A stretch of DNA of 64,000 nt, taken from the NCBI GenBank assembly GCA_050250895.1, contig JBFWNU010000005.1:224001-288000 (forward strand). The letters are read 5' to 3'. Numbering within the stretch: the stretch's first letter is position 1; each line of letters starts with the position of its first letter. This document shows positions 15,450-40,956 of the stretch, piece after piece. This DNA comes from Vulcanimicrobiota bacterium. GTDB lineage: Bacteria > Vulcanimicrobiota > Xenobia > Xenobiales > JADMJV01. The notes below the pieces were generated by a model. The model made no database searches. It was not told the origin of the DNA and saw only the letters and a list, made by a program, of their open reading frames with translations. A program made the translations under genes and the position numbers.

Positions 15450-15545
15450 CGCCGTGACCCGGGCGCCCGCCTGTTCTAGGCGGGCCACCACGTAGCCACC
15501 GAGAAAGCCCGTGCCTCCGGTCACCAGCACCGCTTTGCCTCTCCA
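15450..15545 (-). pseudogene. 5' remnant of GDP-L-fucose synthase (duplicate of the start of the gene at 25926..26855)
   Basis: Translates [32 protein letters not shown], 29/32 identical to fcl codons 4-35. It has no start codon and stops 4 codons later. Confidence 0.85.
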
Positions 15546-15625
15546 ACCCCGATACCTGCGGCGGTCCGCGCCGCTGGGTTAGGGCCTGAATTCAGGGGAT
15601 TACGCCCGGCTGTGGAGAAGACATC

Positions 15626-17119: not shown

Positions 17120-17506
17120 ATGCCGAACTCCATGGATGTTCGCCTGGCCGTAGAGGCGCATCAGCTATTCACCTATCCCGACGTGCTGGTCGTGTGCGGC
17201 TCGCCCCGGCTCTTCGAGGGGCGCAACGACACCCTGGTCGACGCCACGCTGATCGTAGAGGTGCTCTCCCCCTCGACCGAGTCCTACGATCGAGACCAGA
17301 AGTTCCGTTTTTACCGCGCCCTGCCTTCGCTCGAAGAGTATGTCACCGTGGCCCAGGCTTCGGTGTTGGTCGAGCAGCACCAACGCCAGTCCGACAGCAC
17401 CTGGCTGCTCCGAGAACATCACTCGCTCAGCCAGAGGCTTGCCCTCCGGTCGCTGGGGGTCGAGATCGGCCTCGAGGGAATCTATCAGAACATCGAGGGG
17501 CTGTGA
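17120..17506 (+). pseudogene. N-terminally deleted Uma2 family endonuclease (copy A)
   Basis: Identical protein to the 27042..27614 product from DVRLAVE onward, but lacks the first ~67 residues. Confidence 0.8.
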
Positions 17507-17510: not shown

Positions 17511-18323
17511 GCCGCCAATCTGGCCATTCGAGGGGTGCTGGGGTTGCAGCGGCCCGTGCTGGTGGGTCGGCTGGGTGGGTTGGAAGGTGCCACCCTGGCC
17601 TACTATCTGCGGCATCGGCCGCGCCGCCCCTATCCGGAATGGTTGCGGGAGCGAATGCACTACAGCGCAGGTCTGTTCTCCAACGACGACCAGAGCATGG
17701 ATGTTTACTCCATGCTGACGGCCGCGGCCCTACGCCAGGCTGACTTGTTAGCAGTCTGGTGGGCGCCCGGCGAAGCTTCGGCCCTGCGGGGTTGCCTGGC
17801 CGATGGTGTGCCGCTGGTGAATCTGGCCAACCTGCAGCCCTTTCGTCACCCGGAGCCCTGGAGTCAGTTGCTGGCGGGTAAGAAAGTGGTGGTGGTGCAT
17901 CCGTTCGAGGCCTCCATACGGCAGAACTACGCTCGTCGCCACCTGCTTTTTGACGACCCGGCCGTCTTGCCCGGCTTCGAGCTCGAGGTGGTCAAGGCGG
18001 TGCAGGGAGTGACCGGCATCGAGACGGGCTTTGCTGATTGGTTTGCGGCCTTTGAGTGGATGAAGGCGCAGTTGAGCGGGCTCGACTACGAGGTGGCTCT
18101 GGTGGGGTGCGGAGCCTACGGCCTCCCGCTAGCGGCCTGGATTAAGGGGCAGGGCCGCCAGGCCATCCATCTGGGCGGAGTCACCCAGTTGCTTTTCGGT
18201 ATTCGAGGCAGGCGCTGGGACCGGCGGCTGCCGGCGGGACTCTGCCTGCAAAACTGGACCCGACCCCTGCCCGAAGAGACTCCTCCGGATTTTATGGGCA
18301 TGGAGGACGGTTGCTACTGGTAG
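17511..18323 (+). CDS. polysaccharide-locus protein (GT-D-fold-like), 5' end unclear or truncated
   Basis: GKKVVVVHPF, VALVGCGAYGLPLA..IK..G..AIHLGG.TQLLFGIRG.RWD and EDGCYW are typical of this glycan-cluster family. There is no proper start between the Uma2 repeat and the first conserved helix. Confidence 0.7.
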   Translation, partial: AANLAIRGVLGLQRPVLVGRLGGLEGATLAYYLRHRPRRPYPEWLRERMHYSAGLFSNDDQSMDVYSMLTAAALRQADLLAVWWAPGEASALRGCLADGVPLVNLANLQPFRHPEPWSQLLAGKKVVVVHPFEASIRQNYARRHLLFDDPAVLPGFELEVVKAVQGVTGIETGFADWFAAFEWMKAQLSGLDYEVALVGCGAYGLPLAAWIKGQGRQAIHLGGVTQLLFGIRGRRWDRRLPAGLCLQNWTRPLPEETPPDFMGMEDGCYW

Positions 18324-19038
18324 GTTTGCCGTAGTAGCGCTGGCGCACTCGAAGGTCTTCTTGCAGGCGGACGCTCTGTCGACTCAGCTCGAGCCCCTCG
18401 GGGTTTTCATAGTAGATTCCGATGGGTTCCTCGAAATGATGCAGCCGATAGCGTTCGGCGACCCGCAGCCAAAATTCCCAATCGCCCGAGACCTGAAAGC
18501 TCTCGTCGAACAGGCCCAAGCGATCGTGCAGGCTGCGCCGCCACATCGGGTTGGGGCCGCACAGGCACTGCAAGAGCAGGGCCTGGTGCTGGTAGGCCCT
18601 GCGTCGAACCCGCTGTAGGCGGCCGGCCGCCAGGGCGGTGGGCCAGTCGAGAACGTCCTCGGGGGTGACCGCCCGCCAGTTGTCGGGATAAACCAGGGCC
18701 ACCTCGGGAAGACTCTCCAAGCAGCAGACCAGGCGAGACAATCCGTCAGTCTGCATACGGTCATCGGTGTTGGCGTTGGTCAGAAACTCGCCCCGGGCGA
18801 TTTCGATGGCCCGATTCCAGGCTCCATAGACGGTCTGGTGGGGGGTTTCCAACAAGCGGATATTCGGGTGGCGACACTGGTAGTCAGCGGTGATTTCGGC
18901 CTCTCGCTGGGGCGAGCCGCTGACCACCACCACGATTTCGAGAGCCTGGCCAAGATCCTGGGCCAGGAGGTTGTCGAGCCTGGTGGCCAGCCAGGCCTCG
19001 GACCGATAGCAAGAGACCAGGGCCGAGACTTTGATCAA
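18292..19038 (-). CDS. glycosyltransferase family 2
   Basis: VSALVSCY, AWNRAI..ARGEF..NANTDD, FDESF..SGDWEFWLR motifs; TTG start coupled to the kinase stop. Confidence 0.9.
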   Translation of the reverse strand: MIKVSALVSCYRSEAWLATRLDNLLAQDLGQALEIVVVVSGSPQREAEITADYQCRHPNIRLLETPHQTVYGAWNRAIEIARGEFLTNANTDDRMQTDGLSRLVCCLESLPEVALVYPDNWRAVTPEDVLDWPTALAAGRLQRVRRRAYQHQALLLQCLCGPNPMWRRSLHDRLGLFDESFQVSGDWEFWLRVAERYRLHHFEEPIGIYYENPEGLELSRQSVRLQEDLRVRQRYYGKPTSSNRPPCP

Positions 19039-20006
19039 GCCAAACGTTCCAACAGGGTCCGGGCTTGCTCGCCCCGGTCAAGGTCGTAGCGGAGCCCCCA
19101 GCTCTGGGCCTGGGCGACCAGGTTGGTCAACAGCGAAAAGACGAAGCGGCTGGCCTGATCGAGCTCGGGTTGCGGCGGGATCTTGCGAAATAGCAGCATC
19201 GACTCGCGCAGCAACTCGTCGAGGGTCTCGCTGGTGGGGCGAGGCGCGAGCCCGGCGGGGCCGTCTTCGGGCAGCAGCCTCACCAGGTGAGCCACCTCGA
19301 CTGCCTGCCTGGGTCGGGGCAGGTCCAGCGGCAATTTTCCGTAAAAGTCGGGGCCGTCCCGAAGATGGCGGCCACACCAGGGAAGGAGCCCCAAGGCGTG
19401 CCGGGTGATCAAGGGCACCTGCAACGAGGCCACCCCCATCGGCTTGTCCCCGTCGAGAAAGAAGATAGGACTGTCGTCGGCCAGAAGCTGCCAGCCGGCT
19501 TCGACCATGCGCAAGGCCGTGGTCGTTTTTCCGATTCCCCCCGGGCCATATAACAATACCCCCCGGCCGTTCTTTGCCACCAGGGCGCCGTGGAGCGCTC
19601 GAAGTCCGGTCAGAGGAAAGACAAATCCCCGCAACACCGAGCGGAAGAAGGAGCTAAAGAAGTCCTCCGGAGAGTCGAGATAGCCTCGGCCCAGGCTGGC
19701 CCGGACGGTTGCGAGGGCGAAGTCTACCTCGATGAAGTGTTGACGGTCGCCGTCGATACGAGAGCGAAAGCGCGGGCGTTCGTAATAGCACGGTCCGCTC
19801 CCCAGGTTGTGTTCGGTCAAGAGGCCGCAGGCCTTGCCGACGCCAACAGGCCATTCGGCCAACTGCATCGTCCATTCCCGCCCGCCGCTATGGCCGTAGC
19901 CGTGAGGCAGCCGGGCCTCTAGCCACCGGAGCAGGCGGGGGCTCTGGCTGCGGATAGTCAGGCTCAGGCGAGGCAACTCGAGGCGCACCGCCTCTAGAGT
20001 CTTCAT
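19035..20006 (-). CDS. HprK-related P-loop kinase
   Basis: LHGALV..NGRGVLLYGPGGIGKTT (Walker A) and LLADD motifs of the HPr kinase/PEPCK-like fold. Confidence 0.85.
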   Translation of the reverse strand: MKTLEAVRLELPRLSLTIRSQSPRLLRWLEARLPHGYGHSGGREWTMQLAEWPVGVGKACGLLTEHNLGSGPCYYERPRFRSRIDGDRQHFIEVDFALATVRASLGRGYLDSPEDFFSSFFRSVLRGFVFPLTGLRALHGALVAKNGRGVLLYGPGGIGKTTTALRMVEAGWQLLADDSPIFFLDGDKPMGVASLQVPLITRHALGLLPWCGRHLRDGPDFYGKLPLDLPRPRQAVEVAHLVRLLPEDGPAGLAPRPTSETLDELLRESMLLFRKIPPQPELDQASRFVFSLLTNLVAQAQSWGLRYDLDRGEQARTLLERLA

Positions 20007-20043
20007 GCCAGGAGTTTAGCCTGCCGGCAAGTAACCCCCTTCC

Positions 20044-20385
20044 ATGAGTGATCGATTTCTCTGGCGGATCGTCAACGGCGAGGCTCTGGTGGTCGACCTG
20101 AGCAACGGCGACTACTATTCCCTAAATCCCACCGGGACCGAGATTCTCCGGCGCATGACCGAGGGCGAAGGGGCCGACCAAGTGGCTGCCTATCTCGAGG
20201 ACCGATTTGGCCGGGCCGTAGGCGAAGAGGTGGCTGACTTCTTTCGCCAGCTGCAGCACGAGCAGTTGGATGGGCTGGCGGGCGATTCGACCCAGGCCCT
20301 CGAGCTGGCCCAATACGCTCCCCCCGTGCTGCGCAAGTACAGCCAGCTGGACTCGTTGGCCGCTTATTCTCCAGACAAGCTCTGA
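20044..20385 (+). CDS. PqqD-family RiPP recognition element (RRE) with C-terminal lasso-leader-like tail
   Basis: RIVNGEALVVDL.NGDYYSLNPTG.EI...VA.YL...F...VADFFRQL is the canonical PqqD/RRE pattern; the tail is YAPPVLRKYSQLDSLAAYSPDKL. Confidence 0.88.
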   Translation: MSDRFLWRIVNGEALVVDLSNGDYYSLNPTGTEILRRMTEGEGADQVAAYLEDRFGRAVGEEVADFFRQLQHEQLDGLAGDSTQALELAQYAPPVLRKYSQLDSLAAYSPDKL

Positions 20386-21395
20386 AGAAACCCTTCCTTC
20401 ACCAGTTCACTCACGAAGCGCTCGAGCTCGTGTTGCAGCCGAGCCGGTTCGAGGCCCAGTCTGGCTCGCAGCTGCTCGAAAGCATCGTCGCCACTGCTGG
20501 TGAGGCAACGCCACATGAGCGCTCCCTGGCGGCCGACTTCCAACCGCCGCTGCCGGGTGGCCAGCCAGAGCGTGTCGGCCTGACTATACCAGCAGGCCAG
20601 ATCGTCGGCCGGTTTGAGGTCGGTCCGGGGTAAGGGAGGGCGCTTCAACGGCTGCCAGACCGCCACCCGGGGGCCGCTCCACCGGTCCCAAAAGGCGCCT
20701 AGCCGATAAGCGAGCGCGTAGGGGTCGAAGCCGCCACCGCCCACCCCGAAGCCGAACCTGCGGCCCACTCGGGCCGCGCCTCGTCCGTAGCGAAAGAAGC
20801 GGGCCAGCATGCCCACTCGGCCGCGCCGATCAAGATGAATGACTGGATCCTGATCGGTCAGGGCCAGAGGCCACCCGGCCAGTAAAGCCCGCCAGCACAG
20901 TTCGACATCCTCGCAGGCCGGCAAGCTTTCGTCAAAGCCCCTCAGTTCGTCGAGCACCTGCCGGCGAAAGAGGGCGTTGCCGGTCTTTAGCCAGGCAAAG
21001 GGGCTACGCAGCCAGCTGAGCTCGTCGGTCGAGGGCGGGCTCGCACCCAGGTAACGCCACTCGATGGGACCACCCACGGCTCCCGCCTGGCTCGACTCCA
21101 GACGCGCCAACAGGCCTCCCGGCCATCCGCGTGCGACTTGACAATGGGCGTCAAGAAAGGCCACCAGAGGCGAGCGGCCGGCGGCGATACCCAGGTTGCG
21201 GGCCCGTCCGACCGACCCATGGCCGGCTAGCACCTGAGCTCCATGCCGGCGGGCCAGGGCGGCCGTGGCGTCAGACGAGCCGTTGTCGACCACCACCGGA
21301 CGCAATAGCCTGGCCATGCTGGTGCCGGCCAGGCTCTCGAGGCAGGCACCGATATCGCGCTCCTCGTTGCGGGCCGGGATGATGACGTCGATCAA
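20364..21395 (-). CDS. glycosyltransferase family 2 with C-terminal PqqD/RRE-like domain
   Basis: VIIPARNE, VVDNGS.D, ARN.G, FLDAH, GFDESL..CEDVELCWR motifs. Residues ~260-338 read QGALMWRCL...LRARLG...LQHELERFVSELVKEGFL. Confidence 0.85.
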   Translation of the reverse strand: MIDVIIPARNEERDIGACLESLAGTSMARLLRPVVVDNGSSDATAALARRHGAQVLAGHGSVGRARNLGIAAGRSPLVAFLDAHCQVARGWPGGLLARLESSQAGAVGGPIEWRYLGASPPSTDELSWLRSPFAWLKTGNALFRRQVLDELRGFDESLPACEDVELCWRALLAGWPLALTDQDPVIHLDRRGRVGMLARFFRYGRGAARVGRRFGFGVGGGGFDPYALAYRLGAFWDRWSGPRVAVWQPLKRPPLPRTDLKPADDLACWYSQADTLWLATRQRRLEVGRQGALMWRCLTSSGDDAFEQLRARLGLEPARLQHELERFVSELVKEGFLQSLSGE

Positions 21396-22795
21396 GAGAT
21401 GGCCACCTGCAGTTCGTCGAACAGTTCTTCACGCCATTGGTCGAGCTGTCCTGGCCCTAGCTGCTCAGGGGGCCGGTCGGGTTGGATGGCCTTGAGGTCC
21501 AGACCCTGGGGGTAGCCGGGTCGCGGTCCGAGGTAGTGGTCGCGCGTGGCCAGCAAACACAGGTCCCACAAGCCGGCCTTGAGGCCTTCCCACTGGAGGG
21601 TGCTGACGCTTCCCCTTCGAGCGGGATAGGTGGTCATGTGCTGGCGCCGCCGCGACCAGCCACGTTCGAAGGCCTCGAAGTCGTTGTAGGGAGAGCCCGG
21701 GTAGCGCGGTCGGTGTTGATAGCAATAGGGAGAGATTCCGCTGGCCCCGCTCTTGTAAAGACCAAAGCCGGCCAGCACTCGGTGCGTCATCGCCTGCTCC
21801 GGGTAGGTTTGCCAATAGAAGTAGGTGTTTTGCGGTCGCAGCTGAGGAAAAGCCTCGAGCATCTCCATCGGAGCGGCGCCGCCATCGAGGCACAGACTGA
21901 CGATGTCGGGACCCCCGCCACTGAAGGTCTGCCAGGATACGGCCGAGGCCATGGTGGGCCAGTGCGGATAGAGCCTGCGGGCCAGGGTCAGATTGCGATG
22001 GTGGACCTCCCAGGTGTTCCCTCCGGCGTCGACTTCGTCGCTGACATAGAGAACCGGCTGCATGGCGTGAAAGTCGAGCTTGGCCAGCCAGCGGGGAAAT
22101 GGCTGCAGCAACACGGCCCGGCCGCAAAAGCCGCACTCGCTGGCCAGGTCGAGCACCTTCTGGGCCAGCCGCTGACTGCGCTCTCTGAGGCTGAAGCTCG
22201 TAAAGCCCGCCGTTCGAATGTCGCGCAGTTGCCAGCGCAACTCGGCTTCGTCGACATAGTGTTGGCTGCGACGGGGATCCAGGGTGGCCCGCAGCCAGAG
22301 CATTCGGTCTTGAGCGGGCTCGACCGGACGCACACCCAGGACCTCGACTTCGATGGGCAGGCAGAATTCGCGGCCACTCGCCCGCGCCACCAGTTGGGTT
22401 TGGTAGACCCCCGCCGGTTGGTCGGGCGGCACCCGCAGGCTCAGCCACAGTCGCTTGGGGAGCCGACCCAGCCGGGTCACGGCCGGTCCGGCCAGGCGCA
22501 GGTCGGGGGGCTGATAGTAGTAGCGCCACCCTTTGCGCAGGTAGCCATCCTCGATGGCGTCCTGGTCGCACTTGAGCAGCTTCTCGGGCACGGGCTTGAG
22601 GCGTTCCTGAAAGAAGCCGTCGCCGGGCTTGGGGGTGTCCTCGACGACGAAGGCTTCTCCGTGCAAGCCACGTTGGGGTGGGTATTCGACCACCAGCGTG
22701 CTATCGGGCTGCCCGCTCGCCCACAGTTCAAAGCCCAACTCCTGGCCCGGAAGCGCTCGCAGGCTGCGCCGGCTGGGGTCGAAGGTGAGAGTCAC
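21392..22795 (-). CDS. glycoside hydrolase family 123 / DUF4091-like protein
   Basis: LWLSLRVPPDQPAGVY...LPIEVEVL, YVSDE and C-terminal STLQWEGLKAG..DL motif; no signal peptide. Confidence 0.55.
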   Translation of the reverse strand: MTLTFDPSRRSLRALPGQELGFELWASGQPDSTLVVEYPPQRGLHGEAFVVEDTPKPGDGFFQERLKPVPEKLLKCDQDAIEDGYLRKGWRYYYQPPDLRLAGPAVTRLGRLPKRLWLSLRVPPDQPAGVYQTQLVARASGREFCLPIEVEVLGVRPVEPAQDRMLWLRATLDPRRSQHYVDEAELRWQLRDIRTAGFTSFSLRERSQRLAQKVLDLASECGFCGRAVLLQPFPRWLAKLDFHAMQPVLYVSDEVDAGGNTWEVHHRNLTLARRLYPHWPTMASAVSWQTFSGGGPDIVSLCLDGGAAPMEMLEAFPQLRPQNTYFYWQTYPEQAMTHRVLAGFGLYKSGASGISPYCYQHRPRYPGSPYNDFEAFERGWSRRRQHMTTYPARRGSVSTLQWEGLKAGLWDLCLLATRDHYLGPRPGYPQGLDLKAIQPDRPPEQLGPGQLDQWREELFDELQVAIS

Positions 22796-24039
22796 GAGAG
22801 CTTGGCCTGGAGCCTCTGACGGCTTTCGGGAAAGGTGAGCAGCACCTGGCAGAGATCGTATTGGGCCTTGAACACCGCCTGGCAGGCGCCCGGGCAGGCG
22901 GCCAGGGTGGCCGCCTCGTCGCGAAGCTGGCTCAACCGCACCGGGTCGAGGCCCACTTCAAGCTGCTGCCGCAAAGCTCGCTCGATCCGGTTGGCCGTTC
23001 GCTCCACCTGGGGCGGAGTGAAATGCCCGCCCTCAACCAGCCTGGCAGCCAGATCCTCGAGCCTGGCCTGGTCCACGGCGGGTTGAACCTCGAGTCTTTC
23101 GAGGACGGCCTGGAGGCGACCAGCCACCGTGTCCCAATCAGGCAGGCAGCCCACCGTCTCCAGTCCCCTGGCTCTCAGGCGCTGGGCCAACCGGGGTTGA
23201 GCTTGCAGGCGGCGCAGGCCTTCGGCCAATTCGGTCGGCGAGCCGGGCTCGACCAGCAGCAGGTTGTGCTCATCATGCCCGTATTCCTCGACCCCGCCGT
23301 TGCGGCTACAGAGGACCGGGACACCGCAGGCCATGGCCTCCAGCGGCGGCAGTCCCAGGCTTTCGTAGCGGCTCGACGAGCAGAGCACATCGCAGCCTGC
23401 GATGATGGAGCCCAATTGCTGGCGCGGCGGGTTGTGATGGTGCTCAACCTGAAAAGGCACTTCAGGCGGGTTCGGATTGCGCGAGACCATGACCAGCACG
23501 TAAGCGAAGTCGAGCGTTTCGAGCGCTTTGACCACCGCCGCGAAGTCTTTGACCGGCAACCTGTCGTCGCCGATCCAGAGAATTCGAAATGCCCCCTTTC
23601 GAGTTCGTCGGCGGGGTTGGAAATGCTGCCTGTCCAGGGCCAGTTGCAGATAGATCGACGGCCTGCCGAGTTGGGCCAGCAGCCGGGCCAGCGGGCGGGA
23701 AGTAGCGATGAGGGTGAAGGGCAGGTCGAGCAGTTCTTGGTAGATGGGCCGATTGGGTCCGGTCTGGAAGGGCTCGTAGGATTGGCATAAGACGGCCACC
23801 GGAGCCCTGCTTCGGGTTAGCACCCAGGGCAGCAAATTCAAGTGGGACAGCAAAATCCGCTGGCCCGAGAACTTCTGCGGAAAGTCCCTCGCCTGGGCGA
23901 AGGGAACCCCCAGGTCGAACCAATCCGGCTTGGGGCCAAAAGAGACGACGTGGGCCCCGGGCAACCGATTGGCAAGCTCGAGCAGCACCCGCGTGCCGCC
24001 TCCCACTGCGGTCGAAGCCATGAGCACTTGCGTCCTCAT
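22792..24039 (-). CDS. glycosyltransferase family 4 with C-terminal helical extension
   Basis: GGGTRV, SSRYESLGLPPLEAMACGVPV; ATG 24039 overlaps the sulfotransferase stop. Confidence 0.9.
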   Translation of the reverse strand: MRTQVLMASTAVGGGTRVLLELANRLPGAHVVSFGPKPDWFDLGVPFAQARDFPQKFSGQRILLSHLNLLPWVLTRSRAPVAVLCQSYEPFQTGPNRPIYQELLDLPFTLIATSRPLARLLAQLGRPSIYLQLALDRQHFQPRRRTRKGAFRILWIGDDRLPVKDFAAVVKALETLDFAYVLVMVSRNPNPPEVPFQVEHHHNPPRQQLGSIIAGCDVLCSSSRYESLGLPPLEAMACGVPVLCSRNGGVEEYGHDEHNLLLVEPGSPTELAEGLRRLQAQPRLAQRLRARGLETVGCLPDWDTVAGRLQAVLERLEVQPAVDQARLEDLAARLVEGGHFTPPQVERTANRIERALRQQLEVGLDPVRLSQLRDEAATLAACPGACQAVFKAQYDLCQVLLTFPESRQRLQAKLS

Positions 24040-24653
24040 CGGGTCAACATCTGCCGATAAGCCTGGTCCCAATGGATGTGCTCGGCTTGCCACCCGGGCC
24101 CGATGGAGTAGCGGTCGAGCGGACGGGGACGCTCCTGGGCGATGGCCTGGCGAACTCGGGTCTGATCGACCGACCCGGCCCCGAGCCACTCGATGACCCT
24201 GCTCAGAGTGGCCTCTGGGTCGGCGAGCATGGATTCGTAGCTGACCACGAGACCGGCGCGAGGCAACCATTTGTGGCAAAAGGCCAGATGGTAGGCCAGG
24301 CCGCGCCTGGCGAAGGTGTCCCAATCCTCGGCCTCGAGTCGGGGCAGCCGTCCCTCTTCAAAGAGCTGGTAGTAGGAACGAAGGGCCGGTAGGGGAGAGC
24401 GCACCTGAACCAGGCAGGGCAAGTCGGTGGCCAGACTCAGGTCGAGATCGTGGTGCTTCTGAAAGTTGGTCTCGGGCAGGCTGCACGGCACTTGATGGCA
24501 GTGGCCATAATAGCTACAGTAGACGAATGCACGATTGGGCTCGGGATGGGTCGAGACCGGGCCTGGTCCGTTGAAATAATCCCACAACAGGCGGACCAGC
24601 AGGTGGTGGCCACTGCGGGGAAAGCTAACGCAGATAGCCCTGGTCAGTTCCAA
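24036..24653 (-). CDS. sulfotransferase-family protein
   Basis: SFPRSGHHLL (5'-PSB loop), KHHD, VRSP..ALRSYY (3'-PB) and SYESMLADP motifs; TTG 24653 with AGGAG RBS. Confidence 0.75.
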   Translation of the reverse strand: MELTRAICVSFPRSGHHLLVRLLWDYFNGPGPVSTHPEPNRAFVYCSYYGHCHQVPCSLPETNFQKHHDLDLSLATDLPCLVQVRSPLPALRSYYQLFEEGRLPRLEAEDWDTFARRGLAYHLAFCHKWLPRAGLVVSYESMLADPEATLSRVIEWLGAGSVDQTRVRQAIAQERPRPLDRYSIGPGWQAEHIHWDQAYRQMLTR

Positions 24654-25936
24654 AGGCTCGGCTCCTGGGACCAGGTCAGCAGCACCCCGGCCAGGTCGAA
24701 ACTGGCCCGCGCCGCGCCGTAGAACTCGGCCGTGGGGCATTCGAGCAAGGCTGCCAGCCGGTGACGAACATCCTCGAGTTGGCGGCGCTCTGGCTGGCCA
24801 AGAACTCCGCCCGAGCGACACTGGGCGATCACTTCGCGTGCCTGCTCGCAAACGCGATAGGTCTCGATGGGAGTGAATACTCCCTGCTCCACCAGTTCTT
24901 TGGCTAGCCGCTCGAGTTCGGCCTGGTCCGGCTGCCAGGGCCGGGCGTCGGCCAGGACCTGCTCGAACGCCCGCAGGGTTGCCGGCCACTCGAAGCGCCC
25001 TTCGAGGTCGCGCCGTGCTTGCCGGCTCAGGCGCTCCCCGAGCCCCTCCTCGGTCAAGACCTGCTCTAGAGCACGGGCCATGGCGGCGCGATCTCCGGCT
25101 TCCACCAACAGCATGTTCTGGCCGGCGCGCCCGTAGTCGTCGACCCCCAGGTTGCGGGTCGAGACCACCGGCAGCCCGCTGGCCATGGCTTGCAGGGTCG
25201 CCAGATCGTGCCCCTCATACCACGAGCTGCAGAGATAGGCGTGGCAGCTGGCAAAGGCCTCCTCTAGCTGGTCGGGGTCGGGCTTGTAGAGGACCTGCCA
25301 GCCAAACTGATGGCCCTCGAGGTGGTCGCGTGGGGACGTCTCGGGGCTGAGCAAGACCAGTTCGAAGTCGAATCGCCTGGCCAGTTCGTCGAGGGCGGCA
25401 AAGCCGTCGCTCATGCCTTTGTAGGGAGCCAGCGGTGCCCCGCTCATCAAGATGCGCAACGGCCCTGTCGGCCGGGACCGATAGGCGAGCTTCTCGATGC
25501 CCACCGGAACGTAGTGGCTGGGTTGTCCTAGCAGCCCCTGCACCGAGCGAGAGACGGCCACCAGATTCAGCGGCAACGCCTCGATGGCCCCAAACACGGG
25601 ACAGGGCCGGCGTAGCTCCTCGAGGGTCTGGCCGTAGTAAAAGCTCTCGTAGCCCTGGCAAAAGAAGATCAGTTTGGGGCTGAATCGGCCCACGCTTGGC
25701 ACCAGGTGAGCATTGGAGACCACCACCACCTCGGGTTGGCGTGCCTGGATCAGCCCGGGCAGGTCGTCACTCTGAACAAATGGAGCCTGGAGCGAATACC
25801 AGTCAGGCCGGCTGCCCCACGAGGCCACCTCGACTCGCCGGCCGCTGGCCAGCAGCCGGTCGGCCAGACCAAATAGCAGGCGGGTGCAGTCTCCCATGAC
25901 AGTTCGGGTCAGGCAGAAGAGAATCTCAGCTTTCAC
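24644..25936 (-). CDS. glycosyltransferase family 4 with C-terminal helical extension
   Basis: FCQGYE, YKG and [21 protein letters not shown] motifs; paralogue of 22792..24039. Confidence 0.88.
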
Positions 25937-26855
25937 GTCGCATCGCTCCCTGGCGGTACCAGGCGATGGTGCGGGCCAGTCCTTCGTCGAAGCTGGTGGT
26001 GGCCCGCCAGCCGAAGGCCTCTTCGGCGAGCCGACTGTCGACCAGTCGCCTGGGCTGGCCGTCGGGCCGGCTCCTATCGAACTCGATGGGCCCCTCGAAT
26101 CCCGTCAGACGGGCGATTTTTGTAGCCAGATCGGCCACCTTGATCTCCTGGCCTGAACCCAGGTTGACCGGCTCTGACTCGGAGTAGGCCTCGGCAGCCC
26201 GCACAATCGCCTCGGCGGCGTCGTCGACGTAGAGAAACTCGCGGGTGGCCCGGCCGCTGCCCCAGACGGTCAGACCTTGTCCGCTGAGGCACTTGCCAAT
26301 CAGGGCTGGAATGACGTGGCTGGTGTCCGGGTCGATGTGATCGCCCGGCCCGTAGAGGTTGACCGGCATCAAGAAGATCGAGTTGAACCCATATTGCTGG
26401 CGATAGGCCTGACCGGCTACCAGCATCATCTTTTTGGCCAGGGCATAGGGAGCGTTGGTCTCTTCGGGATAGCCATTCCACAGGTCGTTCTCGTTGAAGG
26501 GCACGGGGGTGTGCTTGGGATAGCAGCAGACGGTCCCCACCGAGACGAACTTTTCGACCCCGGCCTGCCAGCAAGCGTGAAAAAAGGGAACTCCCATCAT
26601 CAGGTTGTCATAGAAGAACTCGGCCGGGCGGGCCTGATTGGCTCCAATACCTCCCACCCGGGCGGCCAGATGGATGACCACCTCCGGCTCGGCCTCGGCC
26701 AGGAGCCTTTGGCCGGCGCCCGCCTGGCACAGGTCGCGCTCAGACCCCACGGCCGTCACCCTGGCCCCGGCCCGCTCGAGTCGGGGCACGACGTAGCCAC
26801 CGAGAAAACCCGTGCCACCGGTAACCAGCACCGCTTTGCCTGTCCAAAACGACAT
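25926..26855 (-). CDS. fcl: GDP-L-fucose synthase
   Basis: [59 protein letters not shown] and PDGQPRR motifs. Confidence 0.95.
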
Positions 26856-27041
26856 GTGACGCTGCTTCCCGCGCCCCGCTCCTGATCCCTGGGCGCTGGC
26901 GAGGAGTTGCCGTCAATTTGGCCGGGAGGACGTGACCGTGATTGGCGGGTCTTCGGGCGGTAGGTAGCAGACATGCTCGGGTCGGGCCATAGTCTGACCA
27001 TAGCCGCAGGCGGGCATCCGCGCCATGCCGAACTCAGCTAC

Positions 27042-27614
27042 GTGCTACCGCTGCCTCATCGACGCTTTTCGGCCGAGGAATATTTGCGCCTGGAGGCCGA
27101 CTCCGCCTCCAGAAGCGAGTTCCACGAGGGCCTGATTTATGCCATGACAGGCGGGTCGCTCGACCACAATCGCATCGTATGCAATCTGGTCCATCAGCTT
27201 CGTCTGGGTCTCGACGGGTCGGACTGCGAGGTCTTCAGCTCGGATGTTCGCCTGGCGGTAGAGGCGCATCAGCTATTCACCTATCCCGACGTGCTGGTCG
27301 TGTGCGGCTCCCCCCGGCTCTTCGAGGGGCGCAACGACACCCTGGTCGACGCCACGCTGATCGTAGAGGTGCTCTCCCCCTCGACCGAGTCCTACGATCG
27401 AGACCAGAAGTTCCGTTTTTACCGCGCCCTGCCTTCGCTCGAAGAGTATGTCACCGTGGCCCAGGCTTCGGTGTTGGTCGAGCAGCACCAACGCCAGTCC
27501 GACAGCACCTGGCTGCTCCGAGAGCATCACTCGCTCAGCCAGAGGCTTGCCCTCCGGTCGCTGGGGGTCGAGATCGGCCTCGAGGGAATCTATCAGAACA
27601 TCGAGGGGCTGTGA
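27042..27614 (+). CDS. Uma2 family endonuclease (DUF820), intact copy B
   Basis: FSAEEYL..E...RSEF.EG.IYAM.GGS..H, YPDV.VVC, IVEVLSPST..YDR..KF..Y motifs; start GTG 27042. Confidence 0.92.
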   Translation: MLPLPHRRFSAEEYLRLEADSASRSEFHEGLIYAMTGGSLDHNRIVCNLVHQLRLGLDGSDCEVFSSDVRLAVEAHQLFTYPDVLVVCGSPRLFEGRNDTLVDATLIVEVLSPSTESYDRDQKFRFYRALPSLEEYVTVAQASVLVEQHQRQSDSTWLLREHHSLSQRLALRSLGVEIGLEGIYQNIEGL

Positions 27615-37728: not shown

Positions 37729-40700
37729 CTAGCCGATGGCCAGGCGTCCGTCGGGTCGCTCTCTTAGCAGCCCGTTGGGTGATTTCTGCAGCTCCATCAT
37801 GCGCTCGCCGATCTGGTCGGGCCCGACCTTTCTCACCAGCGGGCTCTCGGAGATCTTCTTCTCCTGGGCCGAGATGACGCGAACCTCCATCATCTGGTCG
37901 AAGGGCAGCTCTTCTTCCCCCGAGACCTTGCCCCACTTGTCACCATAGGCGTTGCGTTTGGTGGTGCTCAGCAAGGCGGCGAAGGCGGCCAGCTGGTCGA
38001 CCTCAGAGGTCTTGAGCAGGCTGTCGAGCTTGGCCCGGATCTGGTCAAACAGCTTCTCGCGCAAAGGGTGGGTCTGAGACAGCTTGAGGATGACCATGTA
38101 GCGGTCGCCCAGGGGATGGGGACGCATCTGGAAGCCATCCCGCTCCATCCACAGATACTCGCCGGCGCGGAACTCGAGAATATCGAACATGCAGCCCAGT
38201 ACGTAGCATTCGTGGGCCTCTTCCAGAGCTACCCGCTCTTCCTTGGTAAGGATGGCGAGATCGGGAAACTTCTTGTCCTGGCATTCGATGTGAAGACACT
38301 CGCCTTCAGTGTAAAGTTTGAGGTACGAGTCGCGCAGATCCAGTACCCGCGAGACGTAGTTGATAGGAAAGCCACCGGCCTCTTGATAAAAGATGATTTC
38401 GCTGGTGTCCGGGATGGGATAGAAGCGCACGTCGCTCTTGATCTCGCGGGTCACGTACTGGCGGAACTTGTCGACATGCGAGGTGACCTCGGAGGCGTCG
38501 GCAGGGGTCATACCCGGCCCCGGCCCCGGCACGCCCACCATCGGATGAATTTGCTCGTCGGGCAAGCGGAAGGTGCCCAACACCCCGCTGCGGGTGGCCC
38601 AGAAGGCCGACCGCGAGATCATCTGGCGCAGGTGGTTGCCGCGGGTCTGCTCGTCCATAGTGGAAAACAGCACCTTCACCACGTGGAAATCGTTGCGGAT
38701 GGGCTCGAACACCTTGCGCGACTCGCCCAGCAGGGCCCGCGTCCACTCTTCGGTGCGACCGCCGGCGATGTCGCTCGACAACCCCGACACGGTGCGCTCG
38801 AGGCGCCTCAAGACCGAGTCAGAGACCTGCTTGAGTTTGTCGCCCTTGATATAGGCCGGATAGTAGCGCTTCTCGATATCGGTGGCCTCGTACAACACCA
38901 GGCTGTGCGGAGCGGAGTCTTTCTGGCTGAAGTAAGAAAACCCGCGCTTGAGTTCTTCGGCCATGCGATCGAGATCGCGAGTGAGTTGACCCAGCTGGTC
39001 GACCAGCCCGCCGCCCCGCCGGCCGTCGGGCCGCACACTGCCCTGGATGAAATCGATCAGGCGCTGGCACAGGCCTTTTCCCTCGTTATAGGCCCGCTCT
39101 TGCAGCAGGCAACGTAAAGAACCGGGAGCCCGGTTATCGCCCACCTGAGCCGATAGATAACGGTCGGTGAGGTAGTTGAGGATGGTGCCTTTGCGTCCGT
39201 CCCAGTTGGTGCGGGCCTGGTAGCGCCCCACTTCGGAAAGGCTGCGGGTGACCTCGGCGATGCGGCGCCGATACTTCTCTTGAATGTCGGTCGACTTCTT
39301 ATCGAAACTGGCCTGGATGGTCTTGAGCTGGGCGGCCGTCTCGTTGAGTACGGCCTGGGCGTATTCGATGCTGTGGCCTTTGCCGTCGACCAGCTCGAAG
39401 GCCGAGTCGCGCAAAGCCTTGCTGGCCCGGTCAAACAGCGCGTCTTGATTGGCTCGCATGGTACGAGGATAGTGGCCCCACTGCTCGGGCTCAGGACCGA
39501 GCTTTTCAGACCACAGGCGTTTCTCTTCGTCTTCGGACTTCTCGGCCAGAAAATCACGCAGAGGCTGGCGCTTCTGGCTGTGTTCGCCGCGGTTGACGGC
39601 CTGCAAGACACCGGCCTTCCATTGGGTCAACTCGCGCAACAAGCCGGCCGCTTTACCCTTGGCGGGGTCGGCCAGACCGCCGTCGTCGAGCAGGGCAAAC
39701 AGGATATCGTGACGCTTTTCGTCTTCGCTCAGTTTAACCCGGTCGAGAAAGTCCTCGCGCACGAAACGAGGCACATCGGCGGGGTTGAAGCTGCCAGCAG
39801 TGGTGCCGCCCCAGGTCTGTAGGATCTCGGAGGCCAGCTTGTAGGAGCAAGCGGTGATGATGCGGTCGTGGGGCACCACGATGGTCGACATGCCGAGCGA
39901 GCCGTAGCGCTGGATGAAGTGCTGCTTGAAGGTCGGATGCTCGTAGTCGTAGGTCTTGTTCATGTACTGGCGCAGGTTGACCCGAGCGCTGCGCTTGTGG
40001 TCGGCAAACTCGCCGTGGGAGAAATCTTTGAAGATGGCATCAGCCAGCAGTTCGAAGACCAGTTCTTGACTGCCCGGCTGACCGCCGGTGACCTGGCCGG
40101 CCGCGTTTTGATTGTCGAACACGTAGGTGTAGTCAAAGGGCGGAATGGGGATGCGGCTGATCTTGTCACGCTCCCACTCGACCGGAAAAATGTTGGCGCC
40201 GCCATAGCTGAAATAGTTCAGTTCCTTGAGCAGGGCATAGCTGTTGGCGCGCATCTTCTCGTTGGTGACGGCTCCGAAGTGATCGGGAAAGACCAGAAAC
40301 GACGAAGTGGTCAGGTTGCCCTCTTGAAAGACATCCTTGACCAGAAAGGCCATGTCCATCAGCATGCCCGAGCCGGTGCCGCCCGCGATCGAGCAGACGA
40401 TGTAGACATTGGTGGGCTGGTTGAACTCGACCTGGGCCAGCAGACCCAGCTCTTTGAGCAGGGGCGAACTCATCATGCGCTCGGCCGAGAGCGGGTCGCG
40501 AATCTTGCGGTTGGCCTCGACCACGGCTGCTCGAATGTCGCGATAGTGATGGAAGAAAGCCAGGCGACTGTAAGCACGGATCTGGCCGGCGCCTTCGTTC
40601 ATCTGGCCCAGGGCCGATAGCCCCGGATACCACCAGCGGTCGATGTGGGCGTAGTTGGGCTCTTTGAGGTTGTTGGTGATGACGGTGGTGTCGGCCACCG

Positions 40701-40956
40701 TGACCATCAACCGCTCGGTATCGGTCATGCGCACATACTCGCGCACTTCCTTGCCCAGAATGTGCTTCTCGCTGCGGTCGGTATCGAGCCACAGATAGCC
40801 CACAATCGGAAACTCGGCCAGGCTGCCGTACTTCTCGTAAAAGCGTTTGCGCACGCGCAAGACCACATCGCCACCGGTGCCGCCCAACCCGATGATCAGG
40901 GTGGGGCGGATGCGGACAAGATCGGCTCCTGCGCCGGGGGTATTCTGTTCGGCCAT
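37729..40956 (-). CDS. tubulin-like (Tubulin_2 family) GTPase domain protein with long helical C-terminus
   Basis: PTLIIGLGGTG, GAGQIR..SRLAF, SIAGGTGSG (tubulin signature) and ANSYALLKEL motifs. Confidence 0.88.
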   Translation of the reverse strand: MAEQNTPGAGADLVRIRPTLIIGLGGTGGDVVLRVRKRFYEKYGSLAEFPIVGYLWLDTDRSEKHILGKEVREYVRMTDTERLMVTVADTTVITNNLKEPNYAHIDRWWYPGLSALGQMNEGAGQIRAYSRLAFFHHYRDIRAAVVEANRKIRDPLSAERMMSSPLLKELGLLAQVEFNQPTNVYIVCSIAGGTGSGMLMDMAFLVKDVFQEGNLTTSSFLVFPDHFGAVTNEKMRANSYALLKELNYFSYGGANIFPVEWERDKISRIPIPPFDYTYVFDNQNAAGQVTGGQPGSQELVFELLADAIFKDFSHGEFADHKRSARVNLRQYMNKTYDYEHPTFKQHFIQRYGSLGMSTIVVPHDRIITACSYKLASEILQTWGGTTAGSFNPADVPRFVREDFLDRVKLSEDEKRHDILFALLDDGGLADPAKGKAAGLLRELTQWKAGVLQAVNRGEHSQKRQPLRDFLAEKSEDEEKRLWSEKLGPEPEQWGHYPRTMRANQDALFDRASKALRDSAFELVDGKGHSIEYAQAVLNETAAQLKTIQASFDKKSTDIQEKYRRRIAEVTRSLSEVGRYQARTNWDGRKGTILNYLTDRYLSAQVGDNRAPGSLRCLLQERAYNEGKGLCQRLIDFIQGSVRPDGRRGGGLVDQLGQLTRDLDRMAEELKRGFSYFSQKDSAPHSLVLYEATDIEKRYYPAYIKGDKLKQVSDSVLRRLERTVSGLSSDIAGGRTEEWTRALLGESRKVFEPIRNDFHVVKVLFSTMDEQTRGNHLRQMISRSAFWATRSGVLGTFRLPDEQIHPMVGVPGPGPGMTPADASEVTSHVDKFRQYVTREIKSDVRFYPIPDTSEIIFYQEAGGFPINYVSRVLDLRDSYLKLYTEGECLHIECQDKKFPDLAILTKEERVALEEAHECYVLGCMFDILEFRAGEYLWMERDGFQMRPHPLGDRYMVILKLSQTHPLREKLFDQIRAKLDSLLKTSEVDQLAAFAALLSTTKRNAYGDKWGKVSGEEELPFDQMMEVRVISAQEKKISESPLVRKVGPDQIGERMMELQKSPNGLLRERPDGRLAIG

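What the first reader, a model, noticed from the sequence alone, without database searches (positions are those of the whole stretch)
20044..20385. RRE protein carrying its own lasso-type leader and a 6-residue core (YSPDKL)
Seen: residues ~1-76 match PqqD/RRE, then a linker, then Y91-A-P-P94-V-L96. Established: lasso leaders bind RREs through YxxPxL at about -17/-14/-12, with G-8 and T-2. Applying that register gives S at -8, A at -2 and a core YSPDKL. That core is too short for a lasso ring (7-9 residues) and lacks the Thr needed for cleavage, but it presents Ser109 (and Tyr108) as acceptors. Inference: either a self-tethered, probably uncleaved precursor/carrier, or an autoinhibited RRE whose tail can swap onto the GT2-fused RRE.
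Basis: partly seen in the sequence, partly recalled or inferred. Interest (0 to 1): 0.85.

Follow-up and report, generated by a model that had tools for sequence, protein, structure and literature searches.

The report
Peptide-binding protein carrying its own leader
This small gene fuses a peptide-docking domain, of the kind that normally guides enzymes to a separate peptide, to the very peptide motif it recognises, so the protein probably presents its own tail to the neighbouring kinase and sugar transferases.

Summary
ORF 20044-20385 (+) encodes a 113-aa protein with a PqqD/RRE domain (Pfam 39 bits, residues 13-74), a variable linker, and a tail with Y91-x-x-P94-x-L96.

The tail is not a chance motif. 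It is among the most conserved stretches in 80 aligned homologues (P94 77/80, L96 72/80). AlphaFold2 gives residues 91-100 pLDDT 97 and a beta-strand at 96-99; residues 101-113 are flexible. In one metagenomic relative the same tail is a separate 55-aa ORF 5 nt after an untailed RRE gene.

This is the rare "type D" form of a large tailed-RRE family. At least 554 type-A loci occur across many phyla. They sit with an HprK-like kinase (70/78), GT2 (69/78) and PF14907 nucleotidyltransferase (57/78).

The lasso register and the "core YSPDKL" are not supported as such:
- YSP aligns with LDP of the main type.
- Ser109 is kept in 7/9 type-D sequences, Tyr108 in 9/9.
- No cyclase or leader protease was found in the ORFs scanned.

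Best reading: a self-presenting substrate or scaffold in a variant of the paeninodin/LPP tailoring logic. I found no paper describing it. Earlier notes of this scan reached the same idea on other genomes.

The parts
20044..20385 (+). Gene for the 113-aa tailed RRE protein (P0001)
20044..20271 (+). [quoted passage not shown]
   Evidence: Pfam PqqD 13-74. AF2 DSSP: E5-10, E13-18, E24-27, H29-39, H44-55, H60-72. Best fold match TbiB1 5v1u, TM 0.76 by target length.
20272..20313 (+). Residues 77-90: variable linker
   Evidence: Lowest column information in the 80-sequence alignment, 0.75-1.3 bits, and variable length
20314..20343 (+). Residues 91-100 (YAPPVLRKYS): leader-type recognition segment, predicted to fold back with high confidence
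   Evidence: pLDDT 97, strand 96-99. P94 77/80, L96 72/80, Y/F91 72/80, Y/F99 73/80.
20344..20382 (+). Residues 101-113 (QLDSLAAYSPDKL): conserved but flexible distal tail with candidate acceptors Tyr108 and Ser109
   Evidence: pLDDT 58/52. Type-D alignment: Q101 and Y108 9/9, S109 7/9, D/E111 9/9.
20364..20385 (.). 22-nt antisense overlap: the last six codons and stop of P0001 (YSPDKL*) and of the GT2-RRE gene (QSLSGE*)
   Evidence: read directly
19035..20006 (-). HprK-like kinase, 323 aa, divergent from P0001 with 37 nt between the start codons; Walker A GPGGIGKTT and an LADD motif are present
20364..21395 (-). GT2 glycosyltransferase with C-terminal PqqD-like (RRE) domain, 343 aa
21392..22795 (-). 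GH123-like protein, 467 aa, no Pfam or NCBIfam hit
   Evidence: Atlas feature score 0.96; structure TM 0.78-0.85 to GH123 clusters.
22792..24324 (-). GT4 glycosyltransferase
24644..25936 (-). GT4 glycosyltransferase
25926..26855 (-). NAD-dependent epimerase, GDP-fucose-synthase-like (below the curated cut-off)
18292..19038 (-). GT2 glycosyltransferase downstream of the kinase

Best explanation
P0001 is a natural fusion of a lasso-B1-type RiPP recognition element (RRE) with the leader-type peptide that such RREs bind. The first ten tail residues (Y91-S100) fold back onto the protein's own RRE (inferred: as an added beta-strand). This leaves the conserved but flexible last 13 residues (ending A-Y-S-P-D-K-L) exposed. 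The divergently encoded HprK-like kinase and the convergent GT2-RRE then use this self-loaded protein as their substrate or scaffold. The likely chemistry is phosphorylation and/or glycosylation at Ser109 or Tyr108, with no leader cleavage.

Shown here: the fusion architecture, conservation of the tail, confident prediction of the Y91-S100 segment as a strand, existence of a split RRE-plus-peptide form, and family-wide linkage to kinase, GT2 and nucleotidyltransferase genes.

Inferred: which strand the tail pairs with, that the kinase and GT act on the tail, the acceptor residue, and the absence of cleavage.
For: 1. Conservation. The tail is among the most conserved parts in 80 homologues and the linker the least conserved.

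2. Structure. AF2 with that alignment gives mean pLDDT 89.7 and pTM 0.81. Residues 91-100 score 97 with a strand at 96-99; residues 101-113 score 58/52. A type-A paralogue type gives the same picture: strand 113-116 at pLDDT 90-94, distal tail 65/66.

3. Fold. The closest solved folds are lasso RREs crystallised with their leaders, TbiB1 5v1u/5v1v and TfuB1 6jx3.

4. Split form. In L041 an untailed RRE ORF (135-419) is followed 5 nt later by a 55-aa ORF (424-591). That ORF ends in a type-D tail, 23 residues from Tyr to the C-terminus as in P0001. P0027, an independent 87-aa representative, ends at the same place as that RRE.

5. Homology to lasso leaders. Untailed relatives sit beside canonical lasso precursors whose leaders share Y1, P4, L6, Y9, G10 and L15 with the tail.

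6. Linkage. Of the best 80 type-A loci, 78 had a tail hit, all fused to the RRE. An HprK-like kinase lay within 5 kb in 70/78 and was the next gene downstream in 48/78. GT2 was present in 69/78 and PF14907-like genes in 57/78 (Pfam check on 18 loci). In the home phylum, 20 of 40 kinase matches lie within 5 kb of an RRE match (hand count).

7. No rival precursor. No other leader-like small ORF was found in 12-30 kb.

8. Published precedent. HprK-like kinases phosphorylate Ser on RRE-recognised precursors in polysaccharide loci (PMC13381572, sections 4, 6, 7 read). PsmK and PsmN add phosphate and then hexose to a C-terminal Ser (PMC6993621, passages read).

9. Fixed C-terminal lengths. Type B is always 20 residues from Tyr to the end (13/14). 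Type D is 21 or 23 (8/9).
Against: - No coordinates were available, so the strand that residues 96-99 pair with was not seen.
- AF2 may lean on RRE-leader complexes it has learnt.
- Ser109 is not invariant: 7/9, and Gly in the split peptide.
- In the dominant type A the equivalent residues are Leu-Asp, not acceptors.
- The distal tail is nearly invariant within each type, unlike most RiPP cores. That would also fit a docking motif.
- This locus lacks the PF14907 nucleotidyltransferase and the ABC exporter typical of the family; neither was found in the ORFs scanned from 7.3-41 kb.
- The GT2's RRE domain is below Pfam's cut-off in this protein.
- No expression or biochemical data exist.
Confidence: 0.55

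Rival explanations
1. Constitutively loaded adaptor. The fused leader only keeps the RRE in its 'occupied' conformation, the form that partner enzymes recognise. The protein therefore switches on or recruits the kinase and glycosyltransferases to act on something else (a glycan, a lipid-linked sugar or a leaderless protein). The tail itself is not modified.
For: The distal tail is nearly invariant within each type, like a docking motif rather than a variable core. Type A has Leu-Asp where type D has Tyr-Ser. The locus is otherwise purely glycan-oriented: two GT4, two GT2, a GH123-like protein and a GDP-fucose-synthase-like gene. In LPP the peptidase recognises the RRE-leader complex (PMC13381572, passages from section 11 seen).
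Against: The exact C-terminal lengths of types B and D, and near-terminal Ser in 13/14 type-B and 7/9 type-D sequences, recall the C-terminal Ser acceptors of paeninodin and pseudomycoidin. The existence of a split peptide gene is what a substrate would look like.
Confidence: 0.2
2. Trans handshake or autoinhibition. The tail sits on its own RRE only at rest. In function it binds the RRE domain fused to the GT2, tethering P0001 to the glycosyltransferase.
For: The GT2-RRE has no tail motif of its own. No other leader-like ORF is nearby. Type-D RRE and GT2-RRE homologues appear to co-occur on two other contigs, judged by matching source and contig length (7317 nt and 2548 nt; not verified).
Against: In most of the family the adjacent GT2 has no RRE domain, so the tail does not generally need a second RRE. 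The linker of about 15 residues, and the high confidence of the monomer model (linker block 81-90 at pLDDT 85), favour cis docking.
Confidence: 0.12
3. Ordinary discrete RRE with an incidental C-terminal extension. The true precursor peptide is encoded elsewhere.
For: The genome holds six other, untailed RRE ORFs and canonical lasso-type clusters (earlier notes of this scan).
Against: The tail is more conserved than most of the RRE domain across 80 homologues. At least 554 confirmed type-A loci exist.
Confidence: 0.04

Closest known systems
Linear polyphosphorylated peptide (LPP) clusters of Bacillota, LppA/K/B/S/D/N (Popov et al. 2026, PMC13381572; sections 4, 6, 7 read, plus 'fused/fusion' passages)
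   Same: An RRE of the lasso-B1 kind paired with an HprK-like kinase. A recognition motif beginning YxxPx[VL]. Location inside a polysaccharide-type locus. No lasso cyclase.
   Different: In LPP the precursor is a separate 35-200-aa peptide with the motif at its N-terminus and a long variable core; an SpI-type peptidase removes the leader. Here the motif is fused C-terminally to the RRE, and only 13 residues follow the recognition segment. No peptidase, PF14907 nucleotidyltransferase or MsbA-like exporter was found in the ORFs scanned at this locus. The paper's only uses of 'fused/fusion' are laboratory constructs.
Kinase-bearing lasso clusters: paeninodin and pseudomycoidin (PMC6993621, passages read)
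   Same: The RRE fold and the leader motif. An HprK-like kinase acting on a Ser at or near the C-terminus. Hexose addition after phosphorylation.
   Different: There is no cyclase or B2 protease among the ORFs scanned. The G-8 and T-2 places are not kept (S100, A106). The tail is too short for a lasso ring. The leader is in cis.
Type A/B/C tailed RREs
   Same: An RRE, a variable linker and the shared motif [YF]xxPxLx[KR][YF]. The neighbouring HprK-like kinase and GT2.
   Different: Type D ends in A-Y-S-P-D(-x-L) exactly 21 or 23 residues after the Tyr, instead of LLLLDPIH[ED]VDxxGWP. It is rare: 9 of the 151 proteins held (P0001 and its 150 best-listed hits), mostly singletons from metagenomes. 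It pairs with a GT2 that carries its own RRE.
Engineered leader-fused RiPP enzymes, such as leader-LctM and leader-fused cyanobactin heterocyclase (recalled from memory; no paper was read)
   Same: A leader tethered in cis to the protein that recognises it.
   Different: Those are laboratory constructs made to render an enzyme leader-independent. Here the fusion is natural and joins the leader to a stand-alone RRE.

Membership tests
PqqD / RRE (PF05402) | Profile match above the curated cut-off | tested here: met
   39 bits vs 23.4, residues 13-74
PqqD / RRE (PF05402) | [quoted passage not shown] | tested here: met
   AF2 DSSP: E5-10, E13-18, E24-27, H29-39, H44-55, H60-72. TbiB1 is the top fold hit.
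Lasso peptide system | Leader YxxPxL | tested here: met
   Y91, P94, L96
   S100 and A106. Type B keeps the Gly, but no type keeps the Thr.
Lasso peptide system | Core long enough for a 7-9-residue ring with an Asp/Glu acceptor | tested here: not met
   Only 6 residues follow the register's cut site
Lasso peptide system | Lasso cyclase and B2 leader protease in the cluster | tested here: not met
   None among the 32 ORFs of 7.3-41 kb scanned with Pfam
Curated lasso B1 chaperone models (NF033530, NF033536) | Score at or above the curated cut-off | tested here: not met
   35.5 vs 70 and 23.3 vs 80
HPr-rel-A system PqqD chaperone (TIGR04353) with HprK-related kinase A (TIGR04352) | Scores at or above the curated cut-offs | tested here: not met
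   22.5 vs 35 for P0001; 32 vs 200 for the kinase
LPP clusters (Popov et al. 2026) | RRE plus adjacent HprK-like kinase | tested here: met
   37 nt between the divergent start codons
LPP clusters (Popov et al. 2026) | Separate precursor with the N-terminal motif YxxPxVLxHQxIxFETxxS | tested here: not met
   The motif is C-terminal and fused. No separate candidate in 12-30 kb.
LPP clusters (Popov et al. 2026) | SpI-type leader peptidase, PF14907 NTP-transferase and MsbA-like exporter | tested here: not met
   Not among the ORFs scanned at this locus. PF14907 and ABC exporters are present at the two paralogous loci of the same genome.
LPP clusters (Popov et al. 2026) | Kinase polyphosphorylates a Ser of the peptide | not testable with these tools
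   Needs biochemistry
Tailed-RRE family (defined here) | RRE, then linker, then [YF]xxPxLx[KR][YF] tail in one ORF | tested here: met
   Tail HMM E 9e-9 (the query is a member of the model); alignment columns

The most novel reading that the evidence does not exclude
The tailed RRE is a protein primer or carrier. The kinase phosphorylates Ser109 or Tyr108 of the self-docked tail. The GT2-RRE, the GT4s and the other sugar enzymes of the locus then build a phospho-linked glycan on it. The small protein would be either the scaffold on which a glycoconjugate or small molecule is assembled, or the mature phosphoglycoprotein itself. Across its four tail types the family would then be a widespread, unrecognised way of making leader-in-cis modified proteins in many bacterial phyla.
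Probability: 0.22. Interest if true: 0.85.

Novelty: new variant of a known kind. Interest (0 to 1): 0.66.

Why it matters
RiPP biology assumes a separate precursor peptide that an RRE hands to enzymes. A natural, widespread family in which the RRE carries its own recognition peptide would have three consequences:
- It would explain many 'orphan' PqqD-kinase-glycosyltransferase operons that seem to lack a precursor.
- It would account for part of the PF05402 proteins that are too long to be discrete RREs and carry no second domain. PMC12710340 reports that 21% of PF05402 proteins fall in this class (passage read).
- It would give a compact, directly testable two- or three-protein system for studying how HprK-like kinases and RRE-fused glycosyltransferases pick their acceptor.

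The type-D form studied here has only 13 residues after the docking segment. It is therefore the minimal member and an attractive one for in vitro work.

Tried and rejected
**Searches that returned little**
- The word-indexed protein search with P0001 found only one relative, P0002 at 82% identity.
- The genome-contig scan with P0001 found none.
The smaller alignments A3 and A6 worked.

**Type-B context**
- I looked for type-B genomic context in 3 genomes and in 301 genomes sampled from the phylum of one of them.
- None of the 27 loci fetched had a type-B tail; 5 had type-A tails. Type-B context therefore remains unseen.

**Kinase relatives**
- The kinase has only one close relative on record, a 190-aa fragment.
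- The 42-sequence kinase alignment A4 is accordingly very divergent, with 21% mean column identity.

- Complex prediction (kinase plus P0001) was unavailable and nothing was folded, so no statement about binding is made from it.
- Structure prediction was not ready and was used later, as that message allowed.
- Model coordinates are not exposed, so tail-RRE contacts could not be listed.

**Readings rejected**
- An assembly frameshift creating the fusion: homologues share the architecture.
- A hidden separate precursor nearby.
- Membership of curated NCBIfam families: every score is below its cut-off.

**Not attempted**
- RNA evidence (look-up of sequencing runs, read laying).

**Literature**
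- Six full-text searches listed no title or abstract about a natural RRE-leader fusion.
- Supplements of PMC13381572 and PMC12710340 were not opened and could list such proteins.

Full report
**1. The observation**

The ORF 20044-20385 (+) starts with ATG and encodes 113 residues. Its codon-position GC of 0.70/0.40/0.75 is the coding pattern of the neighbouring genes.

Pfam places a PqqD domain at residues 13-74: E 1e-9, 39 bits against a cut-off of 23.4. In the lasso register S100 falls at the G-8 place, A106 at the T-2 place, and Y108-S-P-D-K-L113 remain.

The neighbours are:
- A divergent HprK-like kinase at 19035-20006 (-). Pfam Hpr_kinase_C scores 37.1 bits against 33.3. Its sequence shows a Walker A GPGGIGKTT and an LADD motif.
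- A convergent GT2 with a C-terminal PqqD-like domain at 20364-21395 (-). That domain scores 21.2 bits, under the 23.4 cut-off. Of the 15 closest other proteins listed (P0155-P0169), 12 carry precomputed PF05402.

No curated NCBIfam model reaches its cut-off for any of the three proteins.

**2. Is the tail more than chance?**

A bare [YWF]xxPx[LIVFAM] is common; one search lists dozens in 12-30 kb. The extended motif is not. It occurs 19 times in six frames of the 9.5-Mb genome, and three of those hits are the tails of RRE proteins.

HMMER against 1.84 billion representatives found 181 proteins at E <= 1e-3. About 80 of the 151 proteins then held (P0001 and its 150 best-listed hits) carry a tail after the RRE. 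In the 80-row alignment A2 the linker (positions 77-90) has the lowest information, 0.75-1.3 bits. The tail is among the best-conserved stretches:

| Position | Residue(s) | Count |
|---|---|---|
| 94 | P | 77/80 |
| 96 | L | 72/80 |
| 91 | Y or F | 72/80 |
| 98 | K or R | 65/80 |
| 99 | Y or F | 73/80 |
| 105 | L | 64/80 |

**3. Tail types**

Four C-terminal types share the proximal motif:

| Type | Ending | Count |
|---|---|---|
| A | ...KY[TS]DMxDLLLLDPIH[ED]VDxxGWP | 48 |
| B | ...[FYH]GxLExLILSGE, always at the very C-terminus | 14 |
| C | ...LLALDPPxP | 8 |
| D (this protein) | ...RKYDQxxxVxAYSPD(xL) | 9 |

- In type B the distance from Tyr to the C-terminus is 20 residues in 13/14 sequences. 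The terminal S, G and E are kept in 13/14, 13/14 and 14/14.
- In type D the distance is 21 or 23 residues in 8/9 sequences.
- In the type-D alignment Y91, P94, Q101 and Y108 are invariant (9/9). S109 is kept in 7/9, P110 in 6/9 and D/E111 in 9/9.
Tyr108 is at least as good an acceptor candidate as Ser109.

**4. Structure**

AlphaFold2 with A2 gives mean pLDDT 89.7 and pTM 0.81. [quoted passage not shown] Block pLDDT is 85 for 81-90 and 97 for 91-100. DSSP assigns a strand at 96-99. Residues 101-113 score 58/52.

The best solved folds are lasso RREs crystallised with their leaders: TbiB1 (5v1u/5v1v, E 3.7e-4, TM 0.76 by target length) and TfuB1 (6jx3). By sequence TbiB1 is also the best true PDB hit, at E 0.013.

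A type-A member (P0014, alignment A5) behaves the same way. It has a strand at 113-116 with pLDDT 90-94, then a short helix. The invariant DPIH...GWP part scores only 65/66.

So the proximal tail is predicted to fold back on the protein, while the distal, highly conserved part is not self-packed. That is what one expects of a segment meant for a partner.

Two caveats apply. AF2 may also have learnt RRE-leader complexes.

**5. A split form**

Metagenomic locus L041 holds an untailed RRE ORF at 135-419 (94 aa). Five nucleotides later, in another frame, a 55-aa ORF at 424-591 ends in YEKPRLRRYDQIDQVKPYGPREL. This is a type-D tail with the same 23-residue spacing to the C-terminus.

An independent 87-aa representative (P0027) ends where that RRE ends, so the split is unlikely to be a sequencing error.

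With a tail HMM, 22 ORF hits in the loci then held reduce to 14 distinct loci by my de-duplication: 13 fused and 1 split.

Untailed relatives (L060, L063, L068, L053) lie next to canonical lasso-type precursors. Their leaders share Y1, P4, L6, Y9, G10 and L15 with the tail.

The tail is therefore homologous to a leader peptide and has been joined to its RRE.

**6. Genomic company**

The own genome has nine RRE ORFs, three of them tailed:
- This one, on C5 (type D).
- A type-A copy on C2, with HprK-like genes, two PF14907 nucleotidyltransferases, two GT2 and an ABC exporter.
- A type-C copy on C4, with an ABC exporter, a sulfotransferase, two GT4, a GT2, an HprK-like kinase and PF14907.

The phyla include Acidobacteriota, Verrucomicrobiota, Chloroflexota, Cyanobacteria, Gemmatimonadota, Actinomycetota, Bacillota, Bacteroidota, Myxococcota, Nitrospirota and Proteobacteria.

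Of the best 80 loci, 78 had a tail hit, and in all 78 the tail was fused to the RRE (local HMMs, E <= 1e-4):

| Neighbour within 5 kb | Loci |
|---|---|
| HprK-like kinase | 70/78 |
| HprK-like kinase as the next gene downstream | 48/78 |
| GT2 | 69/78 |
| PF14907-like | 57/78 |

A Pfam check on 138 ORFs from 18 of these loci gave, by my tally, PF14907 in 13/18, GT2 in 14/18 and an ABC exporter in 6/18.

In the home phylum, 20 of 40 listed kinase matches lie within 5 kb of an RRE match. This is a hand count, and one pair is in the unpublished genome G344.

**7. This locus**

Type D is rare. Its relatives are mostly singletons from metagenomes labelled 'hypothetical protein'. In the home-phylum search the best match outside the own genome reached only E 7e-16, and it proved to be a type-A protein.

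On the minus strand the locus carries a GDP-fucose-synthase-like epimerase, two GT4, a GH123-like protein and the GT2-RRE. The GH123-like protein is recognised only by the Atlas, at 0.96 by features and TM 0.78-0.85 by structure. Then comes P0001 on the plus strand, then the kinase and a GT2 on the minus strand.

No cyclase, B2 protease, SpI peptidase, PF14907 or MsbA-type exporter was found among the 32 ORFs scanned between 7.3 and 41 kb.

P0002 and the GT2-RRE homologue P0155 both come from a 7317-nt contig. P0004 and P0156 both come from a 2548-nt contig. This suggests, but does not prove, that the type-D RRE / GT2-RRE pair is conserved.

**8. Mechanism**

Published HprK-like kinases of this kind phosphorylate a Ser of an RRE-recognised precursor:
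- LppK acts on Ser3 of the LPP core, in clusters embedded in capsule loci (PMC13381572, sections 6-7).
- PsmK and PadeK act on the C-terminal Ser, after which PsmN-dependent hexoses are added to the phosphate (PMC6993621, passages).

By analogy, the most economical reading is that P0001 loads its own RRE and offers its flexible end to the kinase and the GT2-RRE. I put the fusion-and-cis-docking part at about 0.85. I put the substrate/scaffold part at about 0.5.

The rivals are a constitutively loaded adaptor that is not itself modified (0.2), a trans handshake with the GT2's RRE (0.12), and an incidental extension (0.04).

**9. Comparison and novelty**

The system works like the LPP and paeninodin tailoring modules, but it fails their membership tests:
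- There is no separate precursor.
- The lasso Gly and Thr places are not kept.
- No cyclase or peptidase was found.
- All curated-model scores are below their cut-offs.

Six full-text searches listed no title or abstract about a natural RRE-leader fusion. In PMC13381572 the words 'fused' and 'fusion' refer only to laboratory constructs. PMC12710340 notes that 21% of PF05402 proteins are longer than discrete RREs without a second domain and calls them unexplored. Supplements of these papers were not opened.

Earlier agents of this scan reached the same 'self-leadered RRE' reading on other genomes. Those are unchecked AI notes and not independent evidence.

- The type-D minimal form.
- The four tail types with fixed C-termini.
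- The split RRE-plus-peptide relative.
- The pairing with an RRE-fused GT2.

**10. Open points**

The last six codons and stop of P0001 and of the GT2-RRE gene are the same 22 nt read in opposite directions. They give S-P-D on one strand and S-G-E on the other. GT2-RRE relatives P0155 and P0157 also end in S-G-E, as do the type-B tails in 12 of 14 sequences. Whether S-[GP]-[DE] near the C-terminus is a shared acceptor motif or a by-product of the overlap is unresolved.

Type-B context was never seen.

Noticed in passing
window 17134-17433 and 27242-27541: A 300-nt direct repeat at 99% identity, 10,108 nt apart, brackets the whole kinase/RRE/glycosyltransferase cluster. The right copy lies inside a full Uma2-family gene (26973-27614); the left copy is a fragment of the same gene (ORF 17120-17506). 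A second repeat of 96 nt at 85% identity (15451-15546 / 26752-26847) joins the N-termini of two epimerase-like ORFs. The roughly 10-kb cluster may have arrived, or been rearranged, by recombination.
   Followed up: partly
window 20364-20385: The 3' ends of P0001 and the GT2-RRE gene overlap antisense by 22 nt. YSPDKL* and QSLSGE* are encoded by the same bases. The K-to-S change in P0002 and the S-to-R change in P0155 would fit the same overlap in the relative (inference; its DNA was not seen).
   Followed up: partly
window 21392-22795 (-): A 467-aa ORF without any Pfam or NCBIfam hit looks like a GH123-type glycoside hydrolase by Atlas features (0.96) and structure (TM 0.78-0.85).
   Followed up: partly
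G000:C2:594689-595435 (L039) and G000:C4:127212-128270 (L040): Two further tailed RRE genes occur in the same genome, type A and type C. Each sits with HprK-like kinase(s), PF14907 nucleotidyltransferase, GTs and an ABC exporter; the C4 locus also has a sulfotransferase.
   Followed up: partly
L039:17333-19195 (G000 contig C2): A 620-aa ORF combines an MreB/Mbl domain with a C-terminal MreC domain, next to a separate MreB gene.
   Followed up: no
window 37729-40956 (-): A 1075-aa protein carries an N-terminal Tubulin_2 (PF13809) domain, E 4e-65.
   Followed up: no
window 20007-20043: Only 37 nt separate the divergent start codons of the kinase and P0001. No Shine-Dalgarno-like stretch lies within 10 nt of either start (read).
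   Followed up: no
L127:7869-10706: In one type-A locus, from a Gemmatimonadota MAG, the PF14907 nucleotidyltransferase is fused to the ABC exporter in one 945-aa ORF.
   Followed up: no
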